Source of the DNA: a virus
DNA: 64,000 bases
Strand: one strand, 5' to 3'
Virus record (IMG/VR): IMGVR_UViG_3300031760_000017
Shown: one piece after another, positions 21,601-50,942 of the stretch
How positions within the stretch are numbered: the first letter of the stretch is position 1
Layout: every line of letters starts with the position of its first letter
The notes under the pieces: generated by a model
Seen by the model: the letters and a program-made list of their open reading frames with translations, nothing else
Told to the model about the DNA's origin: nothing
The model's database searches: none
Position numbers and translations under genes: made by a program

Positions 21601-24600
21601 TCTTTTAATTTTCTTTTTTGAGCTTCTAATATTGCGGTTTGTTTATTTAAATTATCAAGTAATTGTTTACCATATAATTTATCTTGAATTTTTTGAGTTC
21701 GCTCTAAATCACGATTAATTTTCTTTATTTCAATGTCAATATCGTGATATAAATCTTTCTCTTGCTCTATTGGCTTTTTAGTATTTTTAGTAGAAGTATT
21801 AGTATTATCTTTTGCAGTTTTATCTGCTGCTTTTTGAGCTTTTTCAGCCTCAGCTTTTCTCCTTGCTTGACCCTTTGCTCCAGCGCCATTAGCAGATTTT
21901 TTATATTTAAAACCACCACCAGAAGTTTTATGTGCGGAAACAACTTTTAAAGCAAATGCAGTATGCTATTTAGTTTCCGTATCATCCGCAGGAACTGTTT
22001 TATAACGAATAGTAGGCACTCTATATGTTACCTAACTTCCATCTATGGGGTTTACACCAGTAACTTCTCTATTTGTAACTTCAGCTTCTGCGCCAGTGTA
22101 CTGAACTGTATCTTGCGCAGTTGTTTTTTGCTAGATGATTTCAGCATCTACACCCATAGAAGCTAAATAATCTGTTGCTTGTTTTGCTGTCATATTGGCA
22201 GCATTTACCATATTACTTAATTCTTTTAAGAATCCTTCATTATCCAATGAAGCTCCGATTTTTAAATCCTATAAATTTTTACCCTAATAATATAATTCCA
22301 TTATATCATCAAAGTCTTTCTTAAAAGCTTCTGTATCTAAATGAATTTGGGTAGCAATATCTTGTCCAGCTAATTGCATTAATTGATCATAAGCTTCTAC
22401 ATTACCATCAATTGCCGCCTTCATTAATTTTAAATTCTCAACATTTGTTAAGAAATTATTAGATAATGACTAACCATCTAAATCAAGTAAATCAGCATAA
22501 GCATCTCTTAATCCAGAAATTGCCTATGATTGTTCTTGCCAAGAGCCACTTTGTAAAGCTCCTAGCCAAGTATCATAATTATCAACAACATCTTGAATAG
22601 CATTATCAAATCTTAAAATTGATTCAGCAAGTTCTTCCGCACCTTCACGATCCTATTTTAAAACTTTTGATAATTCTTCACTTTGCTATGATAAACTTTG
22701 AATATCTTTAGTAAGATTTGCATAAGCTGTCTCATCAACATCCGAATCTGTTGGAAACATAGCATCATGTAACTGATGAGCAAGTTTTTCTTCTTCCTAT
22801 TTTAACTAAGCAGTCCTATCACTTAAATCTTTAGTTTGATCACCTACTTTAGCAACAGCATCATAAATCTACTTTACTATACCTGGAAACTCCTAAAGCC
22901 ATTCTTTTGATTTTTGTTGCTTTTCAATAATAGCTGTCCATTCATTTATAATAGGCTAAGTGGCTCCATCTGTATCTTTTAAATATTCAATTTGTTTCTT
23001 TAATAAATCAAAATCAGCATGATTATTTTGAAGAGCTCTATTATCTAATTCATCATAATCATACTGTTTCTAAGATAATAATTGAACTCTATTTAATTCA
23101 GATTCAATCTAGAATAAAGTATTTTTAAATCCTTCTAATTTTAAATTATTAATAAGTGTATAGAACTATTCTGCATCTTCAGTCATTTTATATGACCCAT
23201 TAGCCATCATAGTAAAGAAAGATTGAATCTAAGGAGCTAAATCTCCAAATTCAGTTTTTGAAACGCTCTTTCCACTTCTAACTTGATCTTCAAGAGACTG
23301 ATAAAAAGCATAATTCTCTGCAGCGTCTCCCTGCATAGCAGAAATTTCTTTTATATTAGAAAAATCTGCATGTGAGATATTATCAACAACATTACCTAAA
23401 GTATCCCAGTTAGAAAATATTGATGGAGAAAGTTCAAAAGCTTTAAATAATTCCTCTAAATGTTGTTCATCTAATTCAGATAAATTTTTAATTATTTTAT
23501 CCGGAATTATTCCTGATGCTTTTTCTTGAATTTTATCAATAATTTTACCAATTTCATTATATTGATTATAAAGTTGAGACTATTCAGTAAGAAGATATGA
23601 ATCAGCTAATTCTTTTGCAGTTGTATCTCCTACAAATTCACCCTGCTATTCTAAAGCTGCTTGTAATTTTTGTCTTTGTTGTAAAAATTCTCCAGCATTT
23701 GTTACATTAGAAAAATCAAGGACGCCATGAGCTTCTTTTGATAATCCTATAAAAGCTGCTTGATTTTCATTAACATCTTTCGAAGCGTTGTCAAAAGCTT
23801 CCATCTATTCTGCTGAATCTGCAACCCATTGTGTTAAATCTTTATACCATTGAGATTGTCTCTATTGTTCGCTTAAAGTTTTGCTTAAATCTTCAACAGC
23901 TTTTTTAACTCTAGGATACATTATTAACAAGGACTATAAATTATAATCAACTTTATATTCAATAGTTCCATTATCTTGTTGGCGAAAACCATTTTCACTT
24001 AATATCTCTTTAGCTTCATCGCTCATTCTATTGCTACCAAAAGATAAAGCATAATCAATTTGATTGTCTTCACCAAGTGAACCTTTTACACCACGTTTTC
24101 CTTGAAGTTCAAAAGAGCTCCATAGGTTTTGTTTTGCTGCTTCATACTATTCTTTACTGGAATTATATTTTTTCTAAGCTTCTTCAGCTTTTAATTCTTT
24201 TAAAGTTTGAATTAAATTATCATAATTATTACGTAATCTATCTGCCGCATCGCCTTCAAGACCATATTGATTAATTAAATCTTCTATTCCTGATTTTAAA
24301 TCAGATCTTGTAATCTAGCCTTCTTTATATTTTTGATTTAGCTCTTCAATAGATTTATATAATTCTTGATTTCTACTTAATTGTTCTTGAAGTGTATTTG
24401 CTTCCTAAATAACTGATTCATTATGTTCAATTTGTGCTTTTCTAGCCTATTTACTTTTATTTATTAAAAAACCGAGTGCTGTTACAGCAGCTAATGCAGC
24501 TGTAATAAAAGCTCCTAATGGAGTAATTGTAATAACACTATTAAGAAATTGAATTTGAAAACCTGCTTCTGTTGCAGCAGCACCTATAGCACCAAATGAA

Positions 24601-27263
24601 ACGGCCTTAGCTCCATTAGAAGTAATAACAGCTGCCGCTTCTGCTGTACTCTTTCTAAATTGATAATTTAAAAGATTAGTTGCTTTTCCAACAGCCCCAA
24701 TTCCTTTAATTAACATTGGTAATGAAAAAGATAAATTTGTAACAATTTGAAGTATTCTTTGTCCAGTAGATAAATCCTGATTTTTCCAAACACTTCCTAA
24801 ATGTTGAATTTGTTGAATAGAAGACCCAATTCGAGCAAGACCTGCAGCAGCTTTTGCATATTCCTCAATTCTAACAGCTCTGTCTTTATTTGACATCTCC
24901 CCATTAAAATCGTTTTGTTTTGCATTCATTTGACCGCGCAATTTCTACAATTCAGGAACAATTTTTGGATCATTATAAACCTATTTAAAAATTTTTTCTA
25001 TTTTTGTTTTAATTTCATTACCACTAGTTTCTGTTATTTCTGCTAATTTATCAAAAAAATCTTTAAATTTTTGAAAAGTTTCTTCATTTACACTTTTAGA
25101 AAATCTTTTAGGTAAATCTTCATATAATTGACCAATCTCTTCAATAGCTTTTTGAGTTTCTTTAGAAAACTATTGATTACTAGTCATTTCATCAAAAACT
25201 TCTTTAAGATCTTTTGCTCCTAATCGTAAAGTAGTAAAAAAACTTCTTATGCCATCTTGCCCTACTTTATCAAATATATTTAAAAACTTTTCAGTTGATT
25301 GAGAAACAGACTCAGTTGATTCTTGAAATTCATCATATTCTTGCTAACATTTTTCTAGCATATTTAATATTTCATCAATTTTTTCAGGCTTTCCAACAAT
25401 ATTTTCTAATTTTGTCGTACCTAACTCTTGTCCTGAAATTCTATCTATTAACTATTCTAAAGGTTGTTTTTGTTTAACTAAAGTTTGAATCTAATTTCCA
25501 ATATTAGTAATATCATTTAATAATTTTTGTGCTCCTTGAAATTCTTCTGGAGACATCATTCTTGATAGTTCTAATAAATGTTCTCTATCTTTTAATAAGC
25601 TTTTACTTACTTCATCTAATTCAGGAATTCCTTGCCAATCTTTTGTTGCTTGTAAGGCATTATCAAATTCTCTAGCATTACTATTTGCAATCTCAAGGTT
25701 AGTAATAGTTGTATTTATTCCTTTAGCAATTTGTTCACTAAAAACAGCAACCCCAATAGCTCCAAGAGATTGTAATAATGCCTTACCTCCGCCTAAGCCA
25801 TCAATAAAGTTTGCAACAAAAACTGCAACACCCGATAATGCATCAGTTATACTCTTTATAGAATCAACATCAATTAAACTATCATATACATCTTCAACGG
25901 AAGCTTTTAATTGCTTTAAATGCGCGGCAGTTGAATCCATATATATATCTTGTTGCTTTTGTAAGGTACCTGCTGCATTTTGCGCTGTATTTAATGCTTC
26001 ATTATATTCTTCAAAATTATCAAATAAAGCAAGTAAATTATTATATTGTCTTTGACCAGCCATTGTTTGAGCTAAATAAATTTGCTGTTCACGAGTTAAA
26101 TCATCCCAACGACCGCCAATTTCTTCCATAACTTCGCCCATATCACGAAGATTTCCATTCATGTCAAGAACATTAAAACCAAGTTGTGCCATTTGACTAG
26201 AATATCTACCAAGAGTAACTCCATCTTCATCAATTCCAGCTTTAATATCACTAATACGAGCATAAACAGTTCTTAAAGCTGTACCAACACTCTAAGGAGC
26301 TTGTCTTGTTGCAGAAATAATAGTTGATAACTGTGCAGCTAATTGCTATTCACTAACACCCATTGTGGCGGCCGTACTTGCAACTTTACCCATACCTTTA
26401 CTTAATTCTTCAAGATCTGATGCGGTTGTTGCAGCAACAGCAGCTAATCTATCAATATATATCTAAGCCTAATCCGCATTAACCTTATAACCATTCCAAA
26501 CGGCAGTTAACTGTTCAGAAACGTCTGCTGTTGATTGATTTGTAACATTTGCTGTTTTTAATGTAATTGCGGTTCTAGCCTAAATTTCTTTATCTGATAA
26601 ACCCTGTTGAGCATAAATTAAAGCAGCATTAGTGTAATCTACTGTTGTAGTGCCTAGTTGTTTGGCTGCATTATTGGCTTGCTCTGCAAATCTTCCCATT
26701 TCATCAGCAGTCTTACTAGTAACGATTCTAATATCATTTAATGAAGTATCTAATGATTTAACATATCCAACTGCTTGTTGAATAGTACTAGTGAAACCAC
26801 GAAATACAGTATTAGCTAAATTATATTTTGCAACATTAACAAAAGTCTAAGCAAATTTATCAAGCACTTGATGAGTTTGCTTTAATTCTGCATTAACACT
26901 TAATACATGAGACGATAAATTTCTAAAAGCATTCTCACCAACAGCACCGCTCTTAGAAAAACTTTGATAGACTTTTTCTATTGAAGTTCCAGATTCATTT
27001 AATGACTTATTAAAACTTTCAACATTTGTAGTATTTAATTTTGCATTAAAAGCAGCTCTTAATGCTTTCTATACATTTCCAGCCTATTTCTGAATTGCTA
27101 TTAAATCGGTTTTAGCTGTATCAAAATCAGAATTATTTATTTTCATCATATCTTTTATAGTTAAATTTTGAATCTCTTTTAAAGATTTTTTTAACTAATT
27201 TAAACTCTGTTTTTGAATGTCAAAACCAATAGAATAGATAATATCTCCACCCTTTTTTGCCAT
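18612..27263 (-). CDS. Tape-measure protein, TP901-like core. Giant at about 2,883 aa, TAG-recoded with about 90 in-frame TAGs
   Basis: Track ORFs 18675.., 20025.., 24447.. and 25491.. are all in one frame. The ATG at 27261-27263 has a GGAGATAAAAGG SD. The TAA stop is at 18612-18614. The core motif is LGFNVLDMNGNLRDMGEVMEEIGGRWDDLTREQQIYLAQTMAGQRQ. Confidence 0.7.
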
Positions 27264-37097: not shown

Positions 37098-39383
37098 ATG
37101 ACATAGAAAGAATTTATTTAGAAAGTAAAAAATCCATGTATAAATGCAACAAATATAATCGGCGGTTATCTTCCCAGCGTATTAATTGGACAAATGTGTT
37201 TATAGACTGGTTACGGAACTGGATATAATTGCGAATTATTAATGCAATGGAATAATTTGCTTGGAATGAAAACTTAGTTATTAAATGACACTTGGAAATC
37301 TAAATATTGGAATGGCAAATCCGCAACTAAAAGAACTCCAGAGTATTATGGTTACCATACAACTATTACAGATTCATTCAGGGTTTATGATAATATTTAG
37401 CAATGTGCATGTGACTATTTACAATTTATGCGCGATGCTAAATATTCTAAAAACGGAAACTATAAATATAGAGATGTTTTAACAATAAAAGATCCAACTC
37501 AACTGATTACTCAAGTATCTAAACGAGGATATGCAACAGATCCAGCTTATATTACATCTGTCATGAGTATTATTAAAAAATATAACTTAACTCAATATGA
37601 TTCAAATGGAGGGAATAAACCTATGACATTAAAATAGGCATTATCAAAACTTGGTGTTAATTTAATTAATAGAATTAGTCAGAATAGAAGCCAAGTTCCT
37701 GCTCATAATGCAAATTCACACCAATATTTTGCTGTTCACTACCTTGGTGTAAATGGTTAGAATCCAGACCTATATGGCGGCGGATATGGTGGACATTTTT
37801 ACGTAAGTAAAGATGGTAAATGCTATCAAGCCGCGGAAGTAACTGATAAACTTTGGCATGTAGGTGCTTCTTCAGGATTCTCTTATATTCATTCTTATGC
37901 AAGAAATAATAATACAATAGGAGTTGAATGCGGAACTTACACAGCTTCTGGAAGAAATAATGATAATGAGACATGGTATTTTACAGAAGCCACTCAAGTA
38001 ACTGCCGCAAAATTAGCAGCAGCTGTACTTACTGTTTATAATTTACCTATGGATCATTTATTAAGACATGGGGATATTACAACTAAAAATTGTCCATCTC
38101 CATTAAAAAGAGACCAGGGTAAAGGTAGCAACTGGACTTGGGATAAATTTAAATCAGAAGTTTCTAAATATATGGCTCAATTAGGAAATGAATCCGCTCC
38201 AACTGTTACTATTCTAAAATTAGGAAGTAATGGAAAATAGGTTAAAGAATTACAAGAAAAATTATTACTTTTAGGATTTGTAGATTGTGCTTATTACAAT
38301 AAAAATAGAAATTTCGCAGATGGTGATTTTGGATAGAATACTTTAAAATCATTAAAATATTTCCAACAAGCAAAAGGATTATAGGTTGATGGTATTTATG
38401 GACCAAAAACCGCAGAAGCATTAGATAAAGCCGTTAAAGAAGCAAAAGCTTCAAAATTTGATGTTACAGTAGATGAATTTTTAAATAATGCAAAAATTAT
38501 TGCAAAAGAAAATAAAGAAAAAGGCTTTAAATATGGTAATGCTTGTTGCTTACCTTCAGTTTATCCTTTTGAAAAAATAACATCTTGTGATAGATTTGTC
38601 GATCAAGTTTTATATAAGAGTGGATTAAAAACTGTTGGTAATCGCGGTTTTACTGATTTATAGGATTGTTTAATTAATCTTAAAGCTCAAAAAATTTATC
38701 GAGAATCTTAGTTACAAAAAGGTGATATTGTATATACAATTGGACATGTATTCATTCTTGGAAACAAAATTTCTAATACTACTTATTAGAGATACGATGC
38801 AGGTTCTGTTGAAAGAATCCAATTAACTGGACCTTATGCTAGCTATAAATCTCAGCCTTTTGTTGAAGAAATTGACCTTTTCACTTTTGCTTATAGATTA
38901 CCTTTTAAAACAAAAGAAGAAAAGAAAGAAAAGACTTCAACATTTTTAAAACTTGGTGATAATAGTGCATCAGTTAAACAAATGCAAGAAAAATTAATTA
39001 AACTTGGATATTTTGTAGGCACAGCTGGTGCGGATGGCGATTTTGGTCAAAACACATTAAAAGCATTAAAATATTTTCAATCTAATCATGGATTAACCGC
39101 AGATGGATATTATGGTCCACTTGCTAAACAAAAATTAGAAAGTATCTATAATAAAATTAAAAATTATGATACACCTACTAAACATGATAATTTAATTAAA
39201 GAGAAAATTTTTACAACAACAGACAATTTAAATTTACGTAAAGGTTCTTCAATAGCACATGAAATTATACTTTAGATTCCAAAAGGAGCAAAAGTAAAGT
39301 GGTATGGTTATTATACCGGATCTTGGTATTATGTAGTTTATAATGGAAATATTGGATATGCATCTTCTCATTATTTAAAATAA
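37098..39383 (+). CDS. Multidomain endolysin, about 761 aa, TAG-recoded with about 17 in-frame TAGs. It has a glucosaminidase-like N-terminus and an amidase_2/PGRP domain. Two PG_binding_1 repeats and a CHAP/NlpC-like region follow. A C-terminal SH3 domain completes it
   Basis: A single frame joins track ORFs 37428.., 38049.. and 38982... Motifs HGDITTKNCP (amidase_2) and ADGDFG.NTLK.LKYFQ (PG_binding_1, two copies). SH3-like C-terminus. Ends in TAA. Confidence 0.7.
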
Positions 39384-40058: not shown

Positions 40059-40826
40059 ATGAAATATATATTAAAAAATGGTTAGTAGATAGAGTCCATT
40101 GATATTGGAAAGGCTAATATCAAAATAGGGCAAAGAAATAATCGACTTACTATTTGTGATAGAGCGCCTAATACAAAATCAAAAAAAGCACGTATAATTT
40201 GTTTATGTGATTGTGGACAATACACAGTTATAAATCATCAAGATTTTAAAAATGGACAAGTTAAAAGTTGTGGATGCTATGCAAAAGAAATACATGCTGA
40301 AATAGGAAGAAAAACTGCTATAGATTTCACTCAATCATAGTACAATAATAATCCATTTTATGAATATATTGAACCTACAGATGTTAGATTTAATTGGAGT
40401 AAACAAGTAGTATGGAAGGTTAAATGTAGAAAATGTAATAAAGAATATTTAGCAATTCCTAAAGAATTAATTTCTATAAATAATAATAAGCGTATGAATC
40501 CTTGTAATTGTTGGAAAACTTATAGTATTGGAGTTCAACGTATTATTGCAATATTAGAAAAAAATAATATTTCTTATGAATTAGAAAAAAAATTTGATAC
40601 ATGTATTTCACCAAAAGGAAATTGTTTACCTTTTGATTTCTATCTTCCTGATTATAAGATTTTAATAGAATATGATGGACAACAACATTTTAATATAGCA
40701 TTTGGTCAAAATGAAAATAAATTGATTCAACAAAAAAAATATGATAAAATAAAAAATGAATGGTGTAAAAATAATAATATTCATTTAATTAGGATACCTT
40801 ATTATCAAAAAGAAATTACAATTTAG
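40059..40826 (+). CDS. Putative homing endonuclease-like protein, with a Zn-ribbon and a PD-(D/E)XK-like EYDG region. TAG-recoded with 3 TAGs
   Basis: Continuous frame from the ATG at 40059 through track ORF 40494... Consecutive TAG TAG at codons 9-10. Confidence 0.35.
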
Positions 40827-40848
40827 AATTTAATAGGAGAAAAAATTA

Positions 40849-42562
40849 ATGGGTAAATTATATACAGAAGACTCGATAGAAAGCTTATCTCCTCTCGAAT
40901 TTACACGACTTAGACCTGGTGTATATTGTGGAGACACTAATTACTCTACTCAATTATTAATTGAAATATTTTCAAATGCAGTAGATGAATACCGTAATGG
41001 ATTTGGAAATAGAATTGATGTAACTATTCTCCCTGACATGATTTCGGTTAGAGATTATGGGCAAGGATTTATTCCAAATTCATATCGGGACGATGGAAAA
41101 ACAATTCTTGAAGCGGCATTTAGTGTTTTAAATACATCTGGAAAATATCGAGATGATGGAACCTATGAAGGAACTTCTTTAGGTTCTTTTGGTATCGGTT
41201 CAAAAATTACGACTTTCCTTTCTCATTGGTTAAGAGTTAAAACTATGAGAGATTCAGAGTGGGAAGAAATATATTTTAAAGAGGGCGTATTTCAATACCG
41301 AACAAGCGGTGCTGGAGGAGTTACTGGAACTCTTGTTGAATGGCAACCTTCAGAAGAATTTTTTACTCATCCAGAAGTAGAAATTAAAAAGGTCGTAGAT
41401 TTATTTAAAACTATTACATGTCTTTGCCCTGGTCTAACAATTAATCTATATGACCATGGAAAACATACTGTTTTTGTTTCTGATAATGGAATTAATGATT
41501 TAATTGATGAAGCTGTAAAAGACACAGAGCTTATTAATAATCGTTTTTCAATGAACTTTTCAGAAGGCAAAAATAAATTTGATATGGTTCTTACTTATGC
41601 AGGCAATTATTCTTTAACAATGGTCCCATATGTAAACACTGGACTTACAGAATCTGGACCTCATATTACTCAAATCAAAACCGTTATCACAAGAGAATTT
41701 AATAAATTCTTTAAAGAAAAAAAATGGTTAAAAGATAAAGATTCTAACTTAACTGGTGATGATATTCAAGAGGGTATGTATGTAATATTTAATCTTACTG
41801 CTCCCAATGTTGGTTATGACGCTCAAGTCAAGAGTAGAATCACAAAGATTGACATGAGTCCTTTTACTTCTGCATTAAGTACAAATTTAAACATTTGGCT
41901 TAATAATAATGAAAAAGAAATAAAAATTATTTTTGAAAAAGCAACAGCCGCCCGTAAGGCAAGAGATGCCGCAAAGAAAGCAAGAGATAAAGCAAGAGAG
42001 CAAAATAAAAAGAAACAGAAAGCTCTTAAATTCGATAGTAAACTTGCAGATTGTAATTCAAAAGATAGAAGTAAATGTGAAATTTATATTACTGAGGGAG
42101 ATAGTGCATCTGGTAATTTAAAGCTTGCTCGTGATAATGAAACACAGGCGGTTATGCCAGTTAGAGGTAAAATTTTAAATACTCAAAAAGCTACTTTTGC
42201 ACAGATTCAAAAAAATGCAGAAATTATGACAATGTGTGATGCCTTCTTTGGACCTGGAGACTGGTCTATTGACCCTAAGACTCTTAAAGTAACTTATAGT
42301 CAAGTAAGATATGGCAAAATAATCATTATGTCAGATGCTGATTGTGATGGAGCGCATATTAAAAATCTTTTTTACACCTTTATATGGAATTTCTGTCCTG
42401 ATCTAGTTCAAAAAGGGTATGTTTATGCTGGGGTTCCCCCGCTTTATAAAATTACTCTTCCTGCAAATAAAGGATATAAATATTTAAAAAATGATGAAGC
42501 ATTAAATGAATTTAAAAGCAAGAATAAAGATAAAAAATATCAGATCGGACGCATGAAAGGGT
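40849..42562 (+). CDS. gyrB: DNA topoisomerase II / gyrase B-like subunit, exon 1
   Basis: GHKL ATPase, TOPRIM motifs (EGDSA, PVRGKILN, IMSDADCDGAHI). Exon 1 ends ...RMKG plus one nt (U). Confidence 0.7.
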
Positions 42563-43595
42563 ACGAGTTAGTCTGGCCCTTAGCTACTTTTCCGCGGATC
42601 GGCGGGGTTGCCTAAAATAGGCAGCTAACGAGGTAGTCTTCTATTTAAAATTTTGGACATTTTAGGATAATCTGAAATGTGAAATTTTTATAATATATAG
42701 AAGATAATCTCGTGGGAAAAAATTACGATATTATCTCCAAAAAAATTAAAGGAGATAAAATAATGATAGGAATTTATAAAATTACAAATTTACTAAATGG
42801 TCATAGTTATATTGGATTATCTACTCATATTGAAGATAGATGGGAATATCATAAAAATCCATATAACTGGAATAGAGAAAAGAATAAATCTTTATACAAA
42901 GCAATTTTAAAATATGGTATCGAAAATTTTTCTTTTGAAATACTTGAATAGTGCTTACCAGAACAGTTAAGTGAAAAAGAAAAATACTATATTGAAAAAT
43001 ATAATACATATCATGCTGGTTATAATATGACTGCCGGCGGTGAAGATAATCAAGGTGAAAGTCATCCAAGACACAAATTAACAAAAGAAGATGTGATAGA
43101 TATTAGAACTAGATATGACAATCTTGAAAGAAAAAAAGATGTGTATTAGTTATATAAAGATAGAATTGGAGAAAGTGGTTTTTCTAAAATTTGGAAGGGC
43201 AACACTTGGACTTCTATAATGATGGAAGTTTACACTCCTTAGAATAAAAAATATCATTTACATGATACGGCAAATAAAGGCTCTCAAAATGGAAGAGCTA
43301 GATTAACTGAATAGGATGTAAGAGCTATTCGATTAAGAAGAAAGAACGGCGAAAAATTATCTGATGTATATGCAAATTATAAACATCTTTTAACCAAAGG
43401 GTCTTTTACGAATATTTGGTCGTATCAAAATTGGAAAAATATCGTAGTTTAAACCTGTATCGACTATCCCCTTTGTCGGGGAGTACATCTCTTATTGATA
43501 CAGAGATGGAAACAGTAGCGCCCTATGACTACAGTAAATGCGTTAGTACGAGGGCAAGAAATAGTCAGTGCCATTGGTAACAATGGATTAACACG
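42563..43595 (+). mobile_element. Group I intron in the gyrB-like gene. It carries a GIY-YIG homing endonuclease ORF
   Basis: The 5' exon end AAGGGU pairs with the internal guide sequence GCCCUU (42576-42581). The pairing has a G.U wobble at the splice site. The intron ends in omega-G at 43595. Splicing restores KGLGEM...NPNNRIIKQITVEDVAAADKLFNDLMGN, a canonical GyrB C-terminus. The intron ends are GC-rich and structured. Confidence 0.65.
42712..43452 (+). CDS. GIY-YIG homing endonuclease inside the intron, TAG-recoded. The start is at 42712 or 42763
   Basis: GIYKITNLLNGHSYIGLS motif. The frame continues through 4 TAGs to TAA 43450-43452. Confidence 0.6.
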
Positions 43596-43786
43596 TAGGT
43601 GAAATGAGCATCGAAGAGACAGAAGAAACTTTAACTAATCCAAATAATAGAATCATTAAACAAATTACTGTTGAAGATGTTGCGGCGGCTGATAAACTTT
43701 TTAATGATTTAATGGGAAATACAGTTATTCCTAGAAAAAGGTATATTAAAGAGCATAGTGCGGAGGCTACTTACAATGCAGAATAA
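43596..43786 (+). CDS. gyrB: gyrB-like exon 2, the conserved C-terminal tail
   Basis: Overlaps track ORF 43604..43786. The reading VEDVAAADKLFNDLMGNTVIPRKRYIKEH matches the GyrB C-terminal consensus. Confidence 0.65.
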
Positions 43787-44020: not shown

Positions 44021-44272
44021 ATGCAAAATAAAGAAAAAATTATACAAATTTTAACAAATGATTTAAATTATTGTTATTGTGATAATTGTAAATATGGTGA
44101 TTATGAAACATATGAAGATAGATTTTGTGAAGGATGTTATAGAAAATATTCAAATTGGGCATTATCATCAATAACAGCAAAGGAAATAGCTGATAAAATA
44201 ATTCAATTAGGTGAAATTTTTCCTATATCAAAAGAAGAACTAGAAGGGGCTATGAATAAAAATGCAAAATGA
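44021..44272 (+). CDS. Small Cys-rich hypothetical protein
   Basis: AAGGAG SD ahead of the ATG at 44021. Confidence 0.4.
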   Translation: MQNKEKIIQILTNDLNYCYCDNCKYGDYETYEDRFCEGCYRKYSNWALSSITAKEIADKIIQLGEIFPISKEELEGAMNKNAK

Positions 44273-46604
44273 TTTAACAAAAGAATTAGGAACAAATTTT
44301 ATAGAATATGCGGTTGCAGTGAATACTGACCGTGCCATACCTAATGCTAAAGATGGTCTTAAACCTGTTGCTAAACGTATCCTTTGGGGAGCTGAAGATA
44401 AAACTAAATGTGTATCTAGTAAACCACATATAAAAGCCGCAAAACTTGTGGGTGATATTATGGGTACATATCATCCACATGGTGATAGCTCTATTTATGG
44501 CGCTCTTGTACGTCTTTCTCAAAATTGGGTTATGCGTTATCCATTAATTGATTTTCATGGTAATAATGGTAATATTATTGGTGACGGTCCCGCACATATG
44601 CGCTATACTGAATGTCGACTAAGTAAATTAGCAGAAGATGGCTTACTTCAAGGAATAAAGAAAAATAATGTTGATTTTATTGACAACTACGATGAAACAA
44701 CAGAAGAGCCAGTATCTCTTCCAAGCATTTTTCCAAATCTTCTTTGTAATCCTAATAGCGGGATTGGTGTTGCTATGGCTTGCTCTTGGGCACCACACAA
44801 TTTTAGTGAAGTAGCTACGGCAATTAACCAATATTTATCTGGAGAAGAACCAATGTTACCTGGTCCAGATTTCCCAACAGGTGGAATTATTATTAACTCA
44901 AAAGATATTCCAAATATTATGAGAACTGGTCACGGTAGTGTTAAAGTTCGCGGAAGATATGAAATTGATAATCAAAAAATTATTTTTACTGAAATTCCAT
45001 ATGGCACTTCTGTAGAAGGTTTAGTAGCGGAAATTGGGAAAGCTTCAGATGAAAAAGAGATTGAAGGTATTGATAACATTCGTGATGAATCTAATAAGAA
45101 AGGAATTAGAATTGTTATTGAATGTGACAAAGGAATTAATCCTACAAGTATTGTAAAAAAATTATTTTCAAAAACAAATCTTCAAAGCTCTTTTAGTTAT
45201 AATCAAGTTGCTCTTATTGACAAAGTTCCAACAGAGTTAAATCTAAAAGATTGTATTAAGATTTATGTTGATCATAATATTGATTGTCTTATAAGAGAAA
45301 CTAAATTTGATTTAGATAAAGCAACTAATAGACTTGAAATTGTTAATGGTTTATTGCGGGCACTAGAAGATATTGACAATATCATAGCGCTGATTAAAGG
45401 TTCTGAAAATGCAACCGCCGCAAAAGAATCATTAATTAAAAAATATCAATTTACAGAAAATCAAGCTAAAGCAATTTTAGCTATGAGACTTTCTTCTCTT
45501 GCAAAACTTGAAAAAGTAGAACTTAATAAAGAAGCAGAAGATTTAGAAAATAAAATTTTTATGTTAAATCAAATTTTAGATAGTCGAGATAATCAAATTG
45601 ATATTTTAAAAGTTCGATTAAATGGATTAGTTAAAAAATATGGGGATGCCCGTCGTACAGAACTTACTAATATTGAAATAAAACCTGAAGAGAAAATCAT
45701 TGAGGAAGTTGTCCCAGAAGATTGTGTTGTAATTTTATCTCAATCTGGAAATATTAAAAGAATCGCTCAGAAGTCTTTTAAAGTTCAACGTAGAAATGGT
45801 AAAGGTGTAAAAACAAAAGATGATGTTATAATGTCTACCATCTCAACAAATACGATTGATAATTTACTTCTATTTACTAAAGAAGGTAAAATGTTTAAGA
45901 TTATTGTAGATGAAATACCAGTCGGTACTAATGCATCAAAAGGCGTACATGTTGGAAATTTAATTAACATGGGAATTAATGATGAAGTAATTGCAATTAC
46001 TTCTCTTGCTAGAAGTAATACTGCAAAATATGTTGTTTTCTTTACTAAGAAAGGTTTAATAAAAAAGACTTATTTAGAAGAATATACAAAAGTAAAACGT
46101 AGTACCGGAATTGCGGCAATTAAAATTAATGAGGGAGATTCTATTGCTAATGTAGAATTCATTAATGAGGAAGATATTCTTGTAATTACTAAGAATGGAA
46201 TGTCAATTCATTTTGAAAGCAAAAATATTAATCCTATAGGTAGAATCGCCGCAGGTGTTAAAACAATTAAGCTAGATGAAAATGATGAAGTTGTTGTAGG
46301 ACTACCAATTCATTCAGAGAAAGATATAATTGCTATCTTTTCAACAAAAGGATATGGTAAAAAGACTTCTATCAAAGAATTTAATTTACAAGGTAGAGGC
46401 GGCAAGGGTCTTGTAATTTATAGACCAAGCGCAATATATGGAGAGATTGCGGGAGCTGTAGTTGTGTCAGATAAAGACACGATTTTACTTACCGGTCAGC
46501 CAAATTCTATATGTATTGCCGCAACTGATTTGCCTTTGTTAACTAGAACAAGCTTTGGTAATATTATGATAAAATCAAACATTTCATCTATTGTAAAATT
46601 TTAA
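44262..46604 (+). CDS. gyrA: DNA topoisomerase II / gyrase A (ParC)-like subunit
   Basis: KDGLKPVAKRILW and HPHGD motifs. 780 aa with no TAG. Confidence 0.75.
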   Translation: MQNDLTKELGTNFIEYAVAVNTDRAIPNAKDGLKPVAKRILWGAEDKTKCVSSKPHIKAAKLVGDIMGTYHPHGDSSIYGALVRLSQNWVMRYPLIDFHGNNGNIIGDGPAHMRYTECRLSKLAEDGLLQGIKKNNVDFIDNYDETTEEPVSLPSIFPNLLCNPNSGIGVAMACSWAPHNFSEVATAINQYLSGEEPMLPGPDFPTGGIIINSKDIPNIMRTGHGSVKVRGRYEIDNQKIIFTEIPYGTSVEGLVAEIGKASDEKEIEGIDNIRDESNKKGIRIVIECDKGINPTSIVKKLFSKTNLQSSFSYNQVALIDKVPTELNLKDCIKIYVDHNIDCLIRETKFDLDKATNRLEIVNGLLRALEDIDNIIALIKGSENATAAKESLIKKYQFTENQAKAILAMRLSSLAKLEKVELNKEAEDLENKIFMLNQILDSRDNQIDILKVRLNGLVKKYGDARRTELTNIEIKPEEKIIEEVVPEDCVVILSQSGNIKRIAQKSFKVQRRNGKGVKTKDDVIMSTISTNTIDNLLLFTKEGKMFKIIVDEIPVGTNASKGVHVGNLINMGINDEVIAITSLARSNTAKYVVFFTKKGLIKKTYLEEYTKVKRSTGIAAIKINEGDSIANVEFINEEDILVITKNGMSIHFESKNINPIGRIAAGVKTIKLDENDEVVVGLPIHSEKDIIAIFSTKGYGKKTSIKEFNLQGRGGKGLVIYRPSAIYGEIAGAVVVSDKDTILLTGQPNSICIAATDLPLLTRTSFGNIMIKSNISSIVKF

Positions 46605-46684: not shown

Positions 46685-48691
46685 ATGAAAAGCAAAATAG
46701 ATATTGGTATTTTAATTAAAAAACTTAATAAAGCTACTAAAGCCTATGATGCAGGGCATCCTATTATGACAGATAGAGAATGGGATGACCTTTATTTTGA
46801 GCTAGTCGAATGGGAAAGACAAACTGGTATTATTTTTGCAGATTCTCCAACCCAAAAAATTCATTTTGAAAAAGTTTCTGAATTAAAAAAAGTGAAACAT
46901 AATCATCTTATGCTTTCTCTTAATAAAACAAAAGATATTAAAGAAGTGTTAGATTTTGTAAAAAATAATCCTTGGATTGCTATGGCAAAAATGGATGGTT
47001 TAACATGTTCGCTTAGATACCTTCATGGAGAACTTGTTTCTGCAGAAACTCGCGGGGATGGTCTTATTGGTGAAGATGTCACCCATAATGCAAAGGTTAT
47101 TTCATCTATCCCTCAAAAAATTAATTACACTGATGAATTAATTGTTGATGGAGAAATCATTTGTACTTATGAAGATTTTAAACCATTTGAAAGAACTTAT
47201 AAAAATCCTAGAAATTTTGCAAGTGGAAGTATTAGATTATTAGATTCAAAAGAATGTCAAAAAAGACATCTTACTTTTGTTGCCTGGGATTCTTTTTGTG
47301 ATAATAAAATTTATGATGAGTATTTAAATATTCCTTATAATATTCAGATTACATTGTCTTTAAAATTACAAGTTCTTCAAGATTTAGGTTTTACAGTGGT
47401 TCCTCATTTGGTTGATGTAGAGGAATGGTCTGTTGAAGACGCTATATCAATAATTAGAGACAAATATCATACTATCTATCCTATTGATGGCGTTGTAATT
47501 AAATACAATGATATAGATGATTATAATGCGGCTGGCCGCACAGAACACCATTTTAAAGGCGGTTTAGCATATAAGTTTTATGATGAACTTTATGATACTC
47601 GTTTAAAATATATTCAGTGGACAATGGGAAGAACAGGCGTCCTTACTCCAGTGGCAGTTTTTGACCCCATTGATATTGATGGTTCAACAGTAGAAAGAGC
47701 GTCACTTCATAATGTTAGTGTTATGAGAGAGATTCTCGGTGATTGTGCTTATCGCGGTGAACCGTTAAAAATTGCTAAAATGAATCAAATTATTCCACAG
47801 GTCATAGAAGCTGGTCCAAAATATGATTATGGATATGTAATAAGTCATGGTGGAGTTTCCGCAAATGATGTTATTGAAAGATGTCCAATTTGTTATGGAG
47901 AGGTTGAATATAAAGAAAGTTCGGAAGGGGTCATAAATGCATACTGCACAAATCCAAAGTGTGAAGGAAAACTAGTTAATAGACTTGATCACTTTTGTGG
48001 GAAAAAAGGATTAGACATTAAAGGGATTTCAAAAGCAACTCTTGGAAAATTTATTGAATGGGGCTGGGTAGAAAACATAGAAGATTTATATTACATTTCC
48101 GAAAAATTTAGGTCGGACTTCTTACTTAAACCTGGCTTCGGAGTTAAATCAGTTATTAAAATTTTAAATGCAATAGAAGAAAGTAAACATACAACACTTG
48201 ATGCTTTTATTTCTGCTATTGGTATCCCTCTTATTGGACGAGCAGTTGCTAAAGATTTAACTAATTATTTTGAAACTTATGAAGATTTCCGTGATGCTGT
48301 AAAAGATAATTCATATCATTTCTATGATTTAGATAACTTTGGTATAGAAATGGAAAATAGTATTAAGAATTTTGATTACGCGGAAGCTGATAGACTTTCT
48401 AAAATTTTATATATTGAAGCCCCAGTTGTAAGCAACAATCAAATAAATAATAGTCTTTCAGGAAAAACTATAGTCATTACGGGAAAACTTACAAAATTTA
48501 AGAATAGAGCTGAATTGAAATCAGTTATTGAAAAACATGGCGGGAAAGTTACAGACTCAATTTCCGCAAAAACAGATATGTTAATAAACAACGATATAAA
48601 TAGCACATCATCTAAAAATAAAGCCGCAAAAGCACGCAATATACCAATTATAACAGAAACTGATTTTATACAGCTTTATATTGAAAATTAA
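46685..48691 (+). CDS. ligA: NAD-dependent DNA ligase
   Basis: KMDG adenylation motif, Zn-finger CPICYGEV...C, HhH and a C-terminal BRCT domain. 668 aa. Confidence 0.8.
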   Translation: MKSKIDIGILIKKLNKATKAYDAGHPIMTDREWDDLYFELVEWERQTGIIFADSPTQKIHFEKVSELKKVKHNHLMLSLNKTKDIKEVLDFVKNNPWIAMAKMDGLTCSLRYLHGELVSAETRGDGLIGEDVTHNAKVISSIPQKINYTDELIVDGEIICTYEDFKPFERTYKNPRNFASGSIRLLDSKECQKRHLTFVAWDSFCDNKIYDEYLNIPYNIQITLSLKLQVLQDLGFTVVPHLVDVEEWSVEDAISIIRDKYHTIYPIDGVVIKYNDIDDYNAAGRTEHHFKGGLAYKFYDELYDTRLKYIQWTMGRTGVLTPVAVFDPIDIDGSTVERASLHNVSVMREILGDCAYRGEPLKIAKMNQIIPQVIEAGPKYDYGYVISHGGVSANDVIERCPICYGEVEYKESSEGVINAYCTNPKCEGKLVNRLDHFCGKKGLDIKGISKATLGKFIEWGWVENIEDLYYISEKFRSDFLLKPGFGVKSVIKILNAIEESKHTTLDAFISAIGIPLIGRAVAKDLTNYFETYEDFRDAVKDNSYHFYDLDNFGIEMENSIKNFDYAEADRLSKILYIEAPVVSNNQINNSLSGKTIVITGKLTKFKNRAELKSVIEKHGGKVTDSISAKTDMLINNDINSTSSKNKAAKARNIPIITETDFIQLYIEN

Positions 48692-49146: not shown

Positions 49147-50091
49147 ATGGTTGTATTAACAATAATAGATATTATTATTTTTTGTGTTGCGATAGTATTA
49201 ATTCATAAAGCTGATTTAAAAAAAGTTAATATCGCTAAATAGCAATAGAAGAAACAACAGTTAATCAATTAGATTAAATAGTTATCTGATACATACAATG
49301 ATTATAATTTAAAAATACAAAACATCCTTCAAGAAACTCAAATTGTTAAAGCTAGAGCTGAAGAAACAACAGCTAATTATATTGCTAATCAAAAACAAAT
49401 AGCACTCGATTATATTAATAATCAATAGCAATTAGCAGAACAAAAAATTAAAGAAATAAATGCTAATACTTAGCAAGAAATTGCGGCAATTCATGAAGAT
49501 CTTCAAAATATTAGGTGTTCTGCCGCACAATAGAAAGAACAAATTCAAAACGAGCTTAATAAACTAAAAGCCTCTTTGAGTGCGGGCGTAGAAGCCCGCC
49601 TTCGCGAACAATAGAAAAAAGATAAAATTAATTTTTATAAACTTTCTATTAGTGATGCGGATTTAGCTGATGTTAAAATGCTAGAAAATTTAAAAGCATC
49701 TTTCCATAAACCTGTTGTTTTAAGTAAACTTATTTGGACTCAATATTTTCAAAAGCAAATGACTGAATTGTGTGATAGAGTACTTGGTAAAAAAACTGTT
49801 TGCGGCATTTATAAAATTACCAATTTATTAACAGAACAATGTTATATTGGTCAAAGTGTTAATATTAGTGATAGATGGAAACAACATTGTAAATGCGGCC
49901 TTGGTATAGAAGCATCAGCTACCAATATTTTATATAATTCAATGCAAAAAGATAAAGTTTGGAATTTTACTTTTGAATTATTATAGGAGTGCCCGCGTAA
50001 TTTACTAAATGAAAAGGAAGCTTTTTGGATTGATACTTATAGTAGTAATATATATGGATTAAATACTATGAAAGGAATTAATAAAAAATGA
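49147..50091 (+). CDS. TM plus Q-rich coiled-coil protein fused to, or followed by, a GIY-YIG nuclease domain. TAG-recoded with about 9 TAGs
   Basis: The frame is continuous from the ATG at 49147 through track ORF 49678... Motif GIYKITNLLTEQCYIGQS. The TAGs sit in Q-rich contexts (Q*Q, NNQ*QLAEQ, AAQ*KEQIQ). Confidence 0.45.
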
Positions 50092-50942
50092 AATTTTAGA
50101 ATACAGATGTCTGGGGATTTTAGCATGCAATCAGGGGTATGAGAAATCCTAAAAATAGCTGGAATAAAAGTGATAGTCTTTTTGAAATTGCTTATATCGA
50201 ACAAATGGAGGCTGATTGGGAAGTCGCTTCAAGTTATGTCGATGCAAATGAAAAATATGATTTTTAGAGTGAATATGATAAATATTATGAAGCACAAGAA
50301 AAATATGCGGATTGGCTTCTTAAAAATGGTGTTTTAAAAGATCAAAATGAATGTTTTAGTTATGCTTTTATTGGACCAAATGATATGAAACTGGCTCAAA
50401 CTCTTATTAAAGCTGGTCCTGAACACCGAAAATTTCTACGCCAAATCTTTGTATCTGTTGATATTACTGCACCACTTTATTGGTGGAAATAGATGGATCA
50501 ATATAAAATTGGGACAGTCACAGATAGCACATCAACTATGCATAAACTAACGAGTAAACCTATTACTCTTGAAAGTTTTGAAATTGATGATTTTAATCCA
50601 GAAATTGTATATTACGAAATTCTTGATGCTCAAAATGATATTGGTATGCTTGCGGATTTTATAATTGAACAACTTGAATTTCTTCGTCAAAAATATCTTG
50701 AAACAAAAGACAAAAGATATTGGAAAGAATTAGTACGATGGTTGCCTGAAAGCTGGTTACAAAAAAGAACATGGACTGCAAATTATGAAGTTCTTTATTC
50801 TATAGTTTTACAAAGAGGGCATCATAAATTAGAAACAGAATGGGATAAAGGTTTTATACATTGGTGCGCCTCATTGCCATATGCAAAGGATTTGATTTTT
50901 TATGGAGAAGAACGAGAAAAAATATATAATTTATATGCATAA
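50088..50942 (+). CDS. Hypothetical protein, 284 aa, 3 TAGs
   Basis: The frame is continuous with track ORF 50493... ATGA overlap with the upstream gene. Confidence 0.4.

What the first reader, a model, noticed from the sequence alone, without database searches (positions are those of the whole stretch)
42563..43595. Group I intron with precise splice sites interrupting the gyrB-like topoisomerase gene, carrying a recoded GIY-YIG homing endonuclease
The gyrB-like ORF stops abruptly in a GC-rich segment. The last exon bases AAAGGGU can pair with the internal guide sequence GCCCUU 14 nt into the intron, with the diagnostic U.G wobble at the splice site. The intron ends with G at 43595. Joining 42562 to 43596 yields ...RMKG-LGEM-SIEETEETLTNPNNRIIKQITVEDVAAADKLFNDLMGNTVIPRKRYIKEH. 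This restores the universally conserved GyrB KGLGEM motif and C-terminal tail, with 634 aa in total. The intron ORF is a GIY-YIG endonuclease that itself uses TAG codons, so the intron is a long-term resident of a recoded genome.
Basis: partly seen in the sequence, partly recalled or inferred. Interest (0 to 1): 0.7.

Follow-up and report, generated by a model that had tools for sequence, protein, structure and literature searches.

The report
Group I intron in phage gyrB-like gene

Summary
The observation and the interpretation both hold. Joining window 42562 to 43596 gives a 634-aa GyrB/ParE-like protein. Its Pfam DNA_gyraseB_C match runs unbroken across the junction. 68 of 80 related viral contigs carry the same gene uninterrupted at that codon. 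The 1033-nt insert is a T4 td-like (IA2-type) group I intron: P1 with U·G at the 5' splice site, P10, the P3/P7 pseudoknot, P4–P6, P7.1/P7.2, P8, P9 and a terminal G.

Twenty-two homologous introns, most at the same ...KG|LGE... site, support the structure by covariation: 95% of cells paired, 45 of 66 pairs with compensatory changes, 0 of 500 shuffles as good. Rfam RF00028 does not detect it, but it also scores T4 td below threshold. A model built only from RF00028-positive introns plus td ranks 43457–43587 first in the window (E about 0.002).

The ORF in the P6a loop is a full-length GIY-YIG homing endonuclease with four in-frame TAGs. The genome reads TAG as sense in many genes, but the topoisomerase exons contain none.

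The kind is known, and a recoded intron endonuclease in an early phage gene has already been described (Borges et al.). This is a new member of a known kind, of modest interest.

The parts
40849..42562 (+). Exon 1 of the GyrB/ParE-like type IIA topoisomerase B-subunit gene (571 codons plus 1 nt). No in-frame TAG.
   Evidence: Pfam DNA_gyraseB and Toprim.
42563..43595 (+). Group I intron, 1033 nt, T4 td-like (IA2-type) architecture.
42557..42581 (+). P1. Exon AAGGGU (42557-62) pairs with the internal guide GCCCUU (42576-81), with U42562·G42576 at the 5' splice site.
   Evidence: Exon and guide covary: L299 AAGGGGU/GGCCCCU, L238 AAAGGAU/GGUCCUU.
42572..42575 (+). P10 guide UCUG. It pairs with the first four bases of exon 2, UAGG (43596-99), and lies directly next to the P1 guide.
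   Evidence: helix 2: 94.6% of cells paired, 2 of 4 pairs with compensatory changes.
42583..42588 (+). P3 5' strand GCUACU. It pairs with AGUAGC at 43514-43519. There is no P2.
   Evidence: helix 3: 97% paired, 5 of 6 pairs compensatory. RNAalifold finds the same helix unaided.
42592..42623 (+). Two covarying hairpins between P3 and J3/4, in the P3.1-like position: 42592-95/42602-05 and 42609-14/42618-23.
   Evidence: helices 4 and 5. P3.1 is listed as an optional group I helix in PMC3873408.
42624..42712 (+). J3/4 (GCUA, then the shared A of P4). P4 is ACGAGG 42628-33 with UCUCGU 42707-12. The extended P5 is 42636-44 with 42696-704.
   Evidence: helix 6. By eye, close to T4 td CUAAACGGGG...GACAAUCCCGUG.
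42713..42731 (+). P6 5' strand (GGG 42713-15) and P6a 5' strand (42719-31). They pair with 43454-56 and 43437-49.
   Evidence: helix 7 (L190 shows G-C to C-G); the P6a duplex is -17.6 kcal/mol against -4.8±2.0 for shuffles, and the strands differ yet still pair in all 21 ORF-containing homologues.
42730..42758 (+). Hairpin that sequesters the endonuclease ribosome-binding site: UUAUCUCC pairs with GGAGAUAA.
   Evidence: -9.8 kcal/mol, z = -3.25. The stem covaries in homologues, for example L220 UUAUCUUAC/GUGAGGUAA and L268 UCCUCC/GGAGGA.
42763..43452 (+). GIY-YIG homing endonuclease ORF, 229 codons, in the P6a loop. In-frame TAGs at 42949-51, 43147-49, 43240-42 and 43312-14. The last five codons and the stop lie in the P6a 3' strand.
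   Evidence: (phrog_7168, residues 1-228, E = 1.7e-37), and 66 (29% identity to I-TevI over 117 aa, E = 6e-11).
43437..43456 (+). P6a 3' strand (43437-49) and P6 3' strand (43454-56).
43462..43566 (+). 3' core. P7 GACUAU 43462-67 with AUAGUC 43561-66. P7.1 43468-71 with 43478-81. P7.2 43486-92 with 43502-08. P3' 43514-19. P8 43520-24 with 43551-55.
   Evidence: helices 8-12; the model built from validated introns aligns P7, P7.1 and P9 here.
43571..43595 (+). P9 hairpin CCAUUG-GUAA-CAAUGG (43571-86), a 3' tail, and the terminal G at 43595.
   Evidence: helix 13: 100% paired, 5 of 6 pairs compensatory. Nearly all homologues in the alignment end in G before UAGG.
43596..43786 (+). Exon 2: 2 nt, 62 codons and the stop. 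It completes the KGLGEM motif and the GyrB C-terminal domain.

Best explanation
Window 42563-43595 is a mobile group I intron of the phage T4 td type. It has P7.1 and P7.2, no P2, and two extra hairpins after P3. It sits inside the Leu codon of the conserved KGLGEM motif of a phage GyrB/ParE-like topoisomerase gene.

Splicing (inferred from structure, not assayed): the guide GCCCUU pairs with the exon end AAGGGU, forming P1 with a U·G pair. An exogenous guanosine bound in P7 attacks after U42562. The freed exon, held by P1 and aligned to exon 2 by P10 (UCUG/UAGG), then attacks after the terminal G43595. This yields an mRNA for an uninterrupted 634-aa protein.

Mobility (inferred by homology): the P6a loop carries a 229-codon GIY-YIG homing endonuclease. 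By analogy with I-TevI, it would cut intron-less alleles of the gene in co-infecting phages and so copy the intron, along with flanking exon bases, into them.

Timing of endonuclease expression (inferred): two features should keep ribosomes out of the ribozyme early in infection. One is a hairpin that buries the Shine-Dalgarno sequence. The other is four in-frame TAG codons, the first at codon 63, which can only be read once TAG suppression is active. The exons themselves contain no TAG.
For: Exact junction:
- The spliced product gives a contiguous Pfam DNA_gyraseB_C match across codon 572.
- 68 of 80 relatives are uninterrupted there, including L001 at 95% identity.
- L024 is identical to the ligated exons over the 15 nt at the junction.

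RNA structure:
- Twenty-two homologous introns were found. Most are at the same site, and two (L190, L259) lack the ORF.
- On the 23-sequence alignment, the drawn structure has 95.1% of cells paired, against 79.1% in shuffles (0 of 500 as high) and 39-47% when partners are slid.
- 45 of 66 pairs show compensatory changes. The covariation score is 0.468, against 0.07-0.09 for slid partners.
- RNAalifold recovers P1, P3, both extra hairpins, P4, P5, P7.1, P7.2 and P9 without guidance.
- The P6a strands pair in every ORF-containing homologue, 3-7 SD better than shuffles.

Link to validated introns:
- The motif GACUAUCCC...GGGAGUA lies inside RF00028 hits of 54-89 bits in 7 of 20 loci scanned, and in T4 td.
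- A covariance model built only from those introns plus td ranks 43457-43587 first of all positions on both strands: 22.8 bits, E about 0.0016, with the next hit at 12.8 bits.

Exon constraint:
- All of the roughly 16 intron-containing alleles read AA(A/G)GG(G/A)U|UAGG.
- The 67 intron-less alleles vary freely at synonymous sites, and only about 3 have GGGTTAGG.

Endonuclease and recoding:
- The ORF has a Pfam GIY-YIG hit and a PHROG homing-endonuclease match over residues 1-228, which runs through all four TAGs.
- Its stops are TAG only.
- Elsewhere in the window, TAG is read through: a lysin with 14 TAGs matches five Pfam domains over its whole length, and a 2883-aa ORF has 71 TAGs.
- The GyrB-like, GyrA-like, ligase and DnaB genes have none.

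RBS hairpin: z = -3.25, and the stem covaries in homologues.

Literature: I-TevI is controlled by an RBS hairpin, and its delayed translation is needed for td splicing (PMC2988022). Borges et al. proposed the same delay for a TGA-recoded intron endonuclease.
Against: - Rfam RF00028 gives no hit for the window at gathering or at E<=10. It also gives none for homologues L071 and L053 or for the ORF-less members L259 and L190 2958-3227.
- Primary-sequence searches with the td intron are not significant in the window: nhmmer finds nothing and blastn gives E about 1.1 at the right place.
- The E-value of my own model is only about 1e-3 and is rough. That model misaligned P7.2.
- No splicing or cleavage assay and no transcript data are available.
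- P7 is invariant in the family, so it contributes no covariation.
- The amino acid inserted at TAG is unresolved. E and Q are about equally indicated, and the window has no tRNA with anticodon CUA.
- The timing role of the TAG codons is inference only.
Confidence: 0.9

Rival explanations
1. The intron is a dead remnant that no longer splices. The gene would then be expressed as two polypeptides: 588 aa ending in 17 intron-encoded residues, plus a 60-aa peptide starting at ATG 43604. They would assemble after translation, as T4 gp39 and gp60 do.
For: - An ATG at 43604, preceded by AGGTGA, opens a 60-aa ORF covering exon 2.
- T4 topoisomerase is naturally split by a mobile element (PMC2988022).
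- Rfam does not recognise the intron.
Against: - The AGGTGAAATG sequence is simply the conserved G-E-M codons and is present in intron-less alleles too.
- All ribozyme helices are maintained by compensatory changes across 23 sequences, including the exon-intron pairings P1 and P10. A non-splicing remnant would not be expected to keep these.
- ORF-less and ORF-containing versions keep the same core.
Confidence: 0.04
2. The intron splices, but its endonuclease ORF is a decaying pseudogene. On this reading the four TAGs are real stops, not sense codons.
For: - Read with the standard code, the ORF is broken into pieces of 79 and 40 aa.
- The window has no suppressor tRNA.
- Some family members do look degraded: L284, L289 and L304.
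Against: - All four interruptions are TAG. There is no TGA or TAA and no frameshift over 229 codons.
- Homology to phrog_7168 runs through all of them, residues 1-228.
- The TAGs sit at E/Q columns of the family alignment.
- The same genome needs TAG read-through for a lysin, an integrase, a RecJ-like protein and ORFs of 1563 and 2883 aa.
- Relatives in TGA-recoded contigs carry TGA exactly at the Trp columns.
Confidence: 0.05
3. The insert is another kind of intervening element: an intein, a group II intron, or a free-standing endonuclease cassette that splits the gene.
For: Inteins are known in bacterial GyrB, and free-standing endonucleases split T-even genes.
Against: - The insert is not in frame with the exons. 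A stop occurs 17 codons in.
- Its conserved parts are RNA helices with compensatory changes, not coding sequence.
- ORF-less copies of 270-280 nt exist at the same site.
- The topology is the P3/P7 pseudoknot of group I introns, not the six domains of group II.
Confidence: 0.01

Closest known systems
Phage T4 td intron with I-TevI (subgroup IA2)
   Same: - Same helix order, with P7.1 and P7.2 between P7 and P3'.
- P7 is identical (GACUAU/AUAGUC).
- Near-identical stretches: CGACUAUCCC..GGGAGUA, GAAAC, and (A/G)AUAGUC.
- J3/4-P4 is UAACGAGG here against UAAACGGGG in td.
- A GIY-YIG endonuclease ORF sits in the P6a loop, and its 3' end forms part of the core.
- A hairpin sequesters the ribosome-binding site.
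- The catalytic domain is 29% identical to I-TevI.
   Different: - The host gene is a topoisomerase, not thymidylate synthase.
- There is no P2. Instead there are two hairpins between P3 and J3/4.
- P5 and P8 are long.
- The C-terminal DNA-binding region differs from that of I-TevI.
- The ORF carries in-frame TAG codons.
- Nucleotide similarity to td is not significant on its own.
Recoded group I intron endonuclease in 'Agate' phages (Borges et al., bioRxiv 10.1101/2021.08.26.457843)
   Same: An intron endonuclease rich in the reassigned stop codon sits inside an early gene that avoids that codon. The authors proposed that the in-frame stops delay endonuclease production until late in infection.
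   Different: - Their case uses TGA for Trp. This window uses TAG.
- The passage I read does not name the host gene, and 'topoisomerase' does not occur in that paper.
- Here the same intron family occurs in TAG-recoded, TGA-recoded (L071, L231) and apparently standard-code contigs (L238, L248, L152, L289).
Rfam RF00028 (Intron_gpI)
   Same: It models the same catalytic core. Related td-like introns that share the P7/P7.1 motif score 54-89 bits.
   Different: No member of this family that I tested reaches even E = 10, whether or not it carries the ORF. The T4 td control scores 40.3 bits against a threshold of 50.
T4 gene 39/60 split by mobA and the gene 60 bypass element
   Same: Mobile DNA targets the phage type II topoisomerase large-subunit gene.
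   Different: Those elements leave a split gene or a translational hop. Here an RNA-level intron restores a single reading frame.

Membership tests
Group I intron | P1 formed by the 5' exon end and an internal guide sequence, with a U·G pair at the 5' splice site. | tested here: met
   A57-U62 pair with G76-U81 (last two digits of window coordinates). U·G is present in 20 of 23 sequences, and exon and guide show compensatory changes.
Group I intron | Terminal G at the 3' end of the intron, and a P10 pairing next to the P1 guide. | tested here: met
   G43595 is the terminal G. UCUG (42572-75) pairs with UAGG (43596-99), with 94.6% of cells paired.
Group I intron | Conserved core: P3-P8 and P7 forming a pseudoknot, a P4-P5-P6 domain, and P9. 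| tested here: met
   All are present in the canonical order. Covariation supports P3, P4, P5, P6, P8 and P9. P7 is invariant, so it is uninformative.
Group I intron | Match to the curated family model RF00028 at its gathering score. | tested here: not met
   No hit at gathering or at E<=10. The test has low power: T4 td scores 40.3 against a threshold of 50, and ORF-less family members are also missed.
Group I intron | Similarity in sequence plus structure to independently validated group I introns. | tested here: met
   A model built from 8 RF00028-positive introns plus T4 td ranks 43457-43587 as the top hit in the window: 22.8 bits, E about 0.0016, next hit 12.8 bits. The significance is modest.
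Group I intron | Guanosine-dependent self-splicing. | not testable with these tools
   This needs an in vitro splicing assay or cDNA.
Subgroup IA2 (phage td-like) | P7.1 and P7.2 helices between the P7 5' strand and P3'. | tested here: met
   P7.1 is 43468-71 with 43478-81. P7.2 is 43486-92 with 43502-08. Both covary (helices 9-11).
GIY-YIG homing endonuclease (I-TevI-like) | N-terminal GIY-YIG catalytic domain with the GIY and YIG motifs and conserved Arg, Glu and Asn residues. | tested here: met
   Pfam PF01541 scores 31.4 bits against a cut-off of 22.6. The alignment to I-TevI residues 4-114 has E = 6e-11 and shows GIY, Y(I/V)G, RW..H, E..(Y/F)(Y/W)I and GYN aligned.
GIY-YIG homing endonuclease (I-TevI-like) | Site-specific cleavage of the intron-less allele. 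| not testable with these tools
   Candidate substrates are the intron-less alleles in L001 and L024.
Stop-codon-recoded phage (TAG read as sense) | In-frame TAGs in conserved genes whose homology continues through them. | tested here: met
   This holds for the lysin (14 TAG), integrase (10), RecJ-like protein (8) and the endonuclease (4). Coverage by ORFs of at least 100 aa rises from 15,245 to 22,946 aa when TAG is read as sense.
Stop-codon-recoded phage (TAG read as sense) | A phage-encoded suppressor tRNA (anticodon CUA) and a known amino-acid identity for TAG. | tested here: inconclusive
   There is no such tRNA among the four in the window, and the rest of the genome was not available. 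TAG columns and codon swaps point to E and Q about equally.

The most novel reading that the evidence does not exclude
One intron and endonuclease lineage, specialised on the KGLGE(M/L) codons of type IIA topoisomerase B subunits, has spread among uncultured gut and rumen phages that use three different genetic codes: TAG as sense, TGA as Trp, and the standard code. In each host its endonuclease has taken up that host's reassigned stop codon. These codons would then act as a translational timer. They keep ribosomes off the ribozyme core, so that the essential early gene can splice, and they restrict homing to late infection. They would also act as a code barrier to endonuclease expression after transfer to a phage with a different code.
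Probability: 0.4. Interest if true: 0.55.

Novelty: new member of a known kind. Interest (0 to 1): 0.35.

Why it matters
For annotation: without the splice, this essential topoisomerase gene would be called truncated or split, and the endonuclease would be called a pseudogene.

For method: the standard group I model (RF00028) is blind to a family found in more than 120 viral contigs by one 15-nt motif. Intron counts in phage metagenomes are therefore probably underestimates.

For biology: the locus gives a clean, testable pairing of two ideas. One is that delayed endonuclease translation protects splicing, as shown for I-TevI. The other is that stop-codon recoding times late gene expression. 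Here the same element exists in TAG-recoded, TGA-recoded and standard-code versions for comparison.

None of this overturns current understanding.

Tried and rejected
1. Rfam on the window, both at gathering and locally at E<=10. There was no Intron_gpI hit. I first blamed the 690-nt ORF, but the ORF-less relatives L259 and L190 2958-3227 are also missed, so the model simply does not cover this family.

2. Sequence-only comparison with the T4 td intron and with an 85-bit RF00028 intron. nhmmer found nothing. blastn placed td at 43458-43485 with only E about 1.1.

3. P3 assignment. I first considered GCUAAC (42625-30) pairing with GUUAGU inside P8. I dropped this because L071 lacks that segment, and covariation supports GCUACU (42583-88) with AGUAGC instead.

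4. P8 columns taken from the window were misaligned by MAFFT, because the window has one extra base. I switched to majority columns. P8 is therefore the weakest helix, at 80% paired.

5. Other matches to GACUA...AUAGUC in the window (62432-62504, 37413-37680, 14632-14684). These are coding sequence and chance matches.

6. Identity of the amino acid at TAG. Family columns favour E over Q. Codon swaps with close relatives are split: GAA 8, CAA 9, GAG 4, CAG 4. This is unresolved.

7. GenBank phages. No cultured phage shares the intron. There are only 37-61-nt matches to the P7-P7.2 region in unannotated parts of Lactococcus and Enterococcus phages. The nearest topoisomerase proteins are 30-35% identical.

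8. The genome contigs pattern scan. 84 of 93 hits were chance, and 9 are true family members.

9. The phAss-1 paper on TAG-recoded 136-kb gut phages does not mention introns or topoisomerase.

Full report
**The observation**

The gyrB-like ORF starting at 40849 runs into a GC-rich stretch and stops at 42615. Joining 42562 to 43596 restores ...IGRMKG|LGEMSIEETEE... and gives a 634-aa protein. Pfam finds DNA_gyraseB and Toprim. It also finds DNA_gyraseB_C over residues 562-623 (model positions 2-63 of 63), in one piece across the junction at codon 572. The exon end AAGGGU (42557-62) pairs with GCCCUU (42576-81), which begins 14 nt into the insert. U42562·G42576 lies at the splice site, and the insert ends in G43595.

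**Intron-less alleles**

A scan of viral contigs with the spliced protein returned 80 relatives at 63-100% identity.

- In 68 of them, tblastn gives a single uninterrupted match through the junction. L001, at 95% identity, reads ATGAAGGGTCTTGGTGAAATG.
- L071 has a 1020-nt insert between residues 571 and 572.
- L053 and L050 break at the same residue.
- Among 67 intron-less alleles, the K-G-L-G-E codons vary freely at synonymous positions. L024 reads AAAGGGTTAGGTGAA, identical to the ligated exons of the window.

The boundaries are therefore exact to the base.

**The RNA**

By eye the insert has the layout of the T4 td intron, whose sequence I fetched as a control. In order it contains:

- P1, with the P10 guide next to it.
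- P3 directly after P1, with no P2.
- Two small hairpins.
- J3/4-P4, reading UAACGAGG (td has UAAACGGGG).
- A long P5.
- P4', reading AAUCUCGUG (td has AAUCCCGUG).
- P6 and P6a, with the ORF in the P6a loop.
- J6/7.
- P7, GACUAU, identical to td.
- P7.1, P7.2, GAAAC, P3', P8, and P7' (AUAGUC).
- A P9 hairpin with a GUAA loop, then a tail ending in G.

Coordinates are listed under 'parts'.

**Homologues and covariation**

Blastn with the 5' and 3' parts of the window's intron found 22 loci that hold both halves. The halves are 815-1072 nt apart in most loci and about 125 nt apart in two ORF-less copies, L190 and L259. About 16 sit at the same ...KG|LGE(M/L/Q)... site of GyrB-like genes.

I aligned the 23 ORF-deleted cores and counted my structure on the alignment.

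| Measure | Drawn structure | Shuffles | Partners slid |
|---|---|---|---|
| Cells paired | 95.1% | 79.1% (0 of 500 as high) | 39-47% |
| Covariation score | 0.468 | 0.159 | 0.07-0.09 |

The structure has 66 pairs in 13 helices, and 45 of those pairs show compensatory changes.

- P3, both extra hairpins, P7.1, P7.2, P8 and P9 are rich in double changes.
- P4 and P6 each have a few.
- P7 never varies.
- P1 covaries between exon and intron. L299 has AAGGGGU/GGCCCCU and L238 has AAAGGAU/GGUCCUU. This is hard to explain unless the pairing is used.

RNAalifold, run with no input from me, recovers P1, P3, both extra hairpins, P4, P5, P7.1, P7.2 and P9. The P6a strands differ between homologues but pair in every one, 3-7 SD better than shuffles.

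**Family membership**

Rfam RF00028 does not find the intron. This holds for the window, for L071 and L053, and for the ORF-less members. The control shows that this test is weak: T4 td itself scores 40.3 bits against a threshold of 50, and only its 3' half is properly aligned.

The motif GACUAUCCC...GGGAGUA, shared by the window and td, lies inside RF00028 hits of 54-89 bits in 7 of 20 other loci and in L190. I built a covariance model from the 3' halves of eight such introns plus td, using no member of the window's family. I scanned the whole window with filters off. The top hit is 43457-43587 at 22.8 bits and E about 0.0016. The next hit is 12.8 bits. The significance is modest, but the hit is independent and in the right place. 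Sequence-only searches with td are not significant.

The two hairpins between P3 and J3/4 are unusual for td-like introns. A helix at that position (P3.1) is, however, a listed optional element of group I introns (PMC3873408).

**The endonuclease and the genetic code**

The ORF 42763-43452 reads MIGIYKITN...YIG.... It hits Pfam GIY-YIG and PHROG 7168 'homing endonuclease' over residues 1-228 with E = 1.7e-37. It aligns to I-TevI residues 4-114 at 29% identity, E = 6e-11.

It has four in-frame TAGs, at codons 63, 129, 160 and 184, and no other stops or frameshifts. Homology continues through all four.

The genome as a whole reads TAG as sense.

- Treating TAG as sense merges fragments into ORFs of 2883 aa (71 TAG) and 1563 aa (26 TAG).
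- It also produces a 761-aa lysin (14 TAG) that matches five Pfam domains end to end.
- An integrase has 10 TAGs and a RecJ-like protein has 8.
- The GyrB-like exons, the GyrA-like gene, the ligase and DnaB have none.

In the endonuclease family, TAGs in other members fall at E/Q columns. In two contigs whose ORF coverage improves under TGA-as-sense (L071, L231), TGA falls at Trp columns. Four contigs look standard-coded. The closest relative, L272, is 93% identical and shares all four TAG positions.

Which amino acid TAG encodes is not settled here. E and Q are about equally indicated, and the window has no tRNA with anticodon CUA. Published work reports Gln (PMC9523058 abstract).

**How it most likely works**

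Shown by sequence:

- The structural elements needed for the two transesterifications are present.
- The ligated exons are exact.
- The last five codons and the stop of the endonuclease ORF form the 3' strand of P6a.
- The Shine-Dalgarno sequence GGAG is paired in a hairpin (z = -3.25) that covaries in homologues.

Inferred:

- The intron self-splices as td does.
- The endonuclease cuts intron-less alleles and drives homing, with co-conversion of the flanking exon bases. This would explain why every intron-containing allele reads AAAGGGU|UAGG, while intron-less alleles rarely do.
- The RBS hairpin and the TAG codons keep ribosomes out of the core until late infection.

The last idea has precedent. 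Delayed I-TevI translation is required for efficient td splicing (PMC2988022). Borges et al. proposed exactly this role for in-frame TGA codons in a group I intron endonuclease of 'Agate' phages.

**Novelty and verdict**

Group I introns with GIY-YIG endonucleases in phage DNA-metabolism genes are textbook cases. The pairing of a recoded endonuclease with an unrecoded early host gene has been reported.

What is new here:

- The host gene and site, the KGLGEM codons of a type IIA topoisomerase B subunit. I found no report of this in the papers searched.
- The size of the family.
- Its presence under three genetic codes.
- Its invisibility to Rfam.

I rate it a new member of a known kind, with interest 0.35.

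Noticed in passing
L058 6453-6545, L062 6434-6526, L070 3133-3225, L075 6444-6542: Relatives of the same GyrB-like gene carry a second insert of about 1 kb. The first tblastn piece ends at residue 508 (L062, L070, L075) or 562 (L058). The insert holds the same family core (TGAACCTGTATCGACTATTCCC...). The gene therefore has at least two intron insertion sites.
   Followed up: partly
L190 2958-3227, 5651-5961, 6369-6595, 6665-6907: One 8-kb stretch of a viral contig holds four group I introns. Three are detected by RF00028 (48, 85 and 36 bits). The fourth is an ORF-less member of the window's family, which RF00028 misses.
   Followed up: partly
window 49147-50091: A second GIY-YIG protein: 314 codons with 9 in-frame TAGs, with the Pfam GIY-YIG domain at residues 219-301. 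It lies just upstream of, and overlaps, the ORF at 50088-50942. It may be a free-standing homing endonuclease.
   Followed up: partly
window 40059-40856: A 265-codon ORF with 4 in-frame TAGs that overlaps the start of the gyrB-like gene by 8 nt. It is Cys-rich and has no Pfam hit. From memory, its C-terminal part (LPFDFYLPDYKILIEYDGQQHF) resembles restriction-endonuclease-like domains. This was not tested.
   Followed up: partly
window, whole: TAG use is sharply two-class. Recoded genes: 71 TAGs in 18612-27263(-), 26 in 13604-18295(-), 14 in the lysin 37098-39383, 10 in the integrase 7690-8703(-), and 8 in the RecJ-like gene 58423-60204. TAG-free genes: the GyrB-like and GyrA-like (44262-46604) genes, the NAD-dependent ligase (46685-48691), DnaB (54897-56441) and the SF1 helicase (61047-62228).
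   Followed up: partly
window 42949, 43147, 43240, 43312, and the family alignment: In the endonuclease family, columns that hold TAG are occupied by Glu (130) more often than by Gln (44) in other members. Codon swaps with close relatives are split between GAA/GAG and CAA/CAG. The amino acid read at TAG in this phage group is therefore not settled by my data.
   Followed up: partly
window 43524-43551 (P8 extension): A subset of the family (window, L053, L220, L259, L272, L276, L283, L299, L300) has an extended P8 with a conserved 13-nt loop, AGU(A/U)AA(A/U)(A/G)CGU(U/A)A. Its CGUUA is complementary to UAACG of J3/4-P4. This could be a tertiary contact or an alternative pairing. It is unexplained.
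   Followed up: no
L330, L332, L333, L360, L363, L369, L383, L394, L401 (genome contigs): Nine true members of the intron family, all with the AAAGGGT| exon end, lie in contigs of metagenome-assembled genomes. The labels include Lachnospiraceae (155 kb), Bacilli (125 kb), Mollicutes (164 kb) and a ruminal Endomicrobiaceae MAG (140 kb), among others. These contig sizes match the related phage contigs, so they are probably phage genomes binned into bacterial MAGs.
   Followed up: no
window 396-1395: A cluster of four tRNA genes: Gln-UUG, Gly-UCC, Arg-UCU and Cys-GCA. None has the anticodon CUA.
   Followed up: no
Lactococcus phages LW81, AM1 and others (H43-H54); Enterococcus phages EF1 and EF5 (H41, H42): Matches of 37-61 nt (79-89% identity) to the P7-P7.1-P7.2 region fall in stretches with no annotated feature. 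These may be unannotated group I introns in cultured phages.
   Followed up: no
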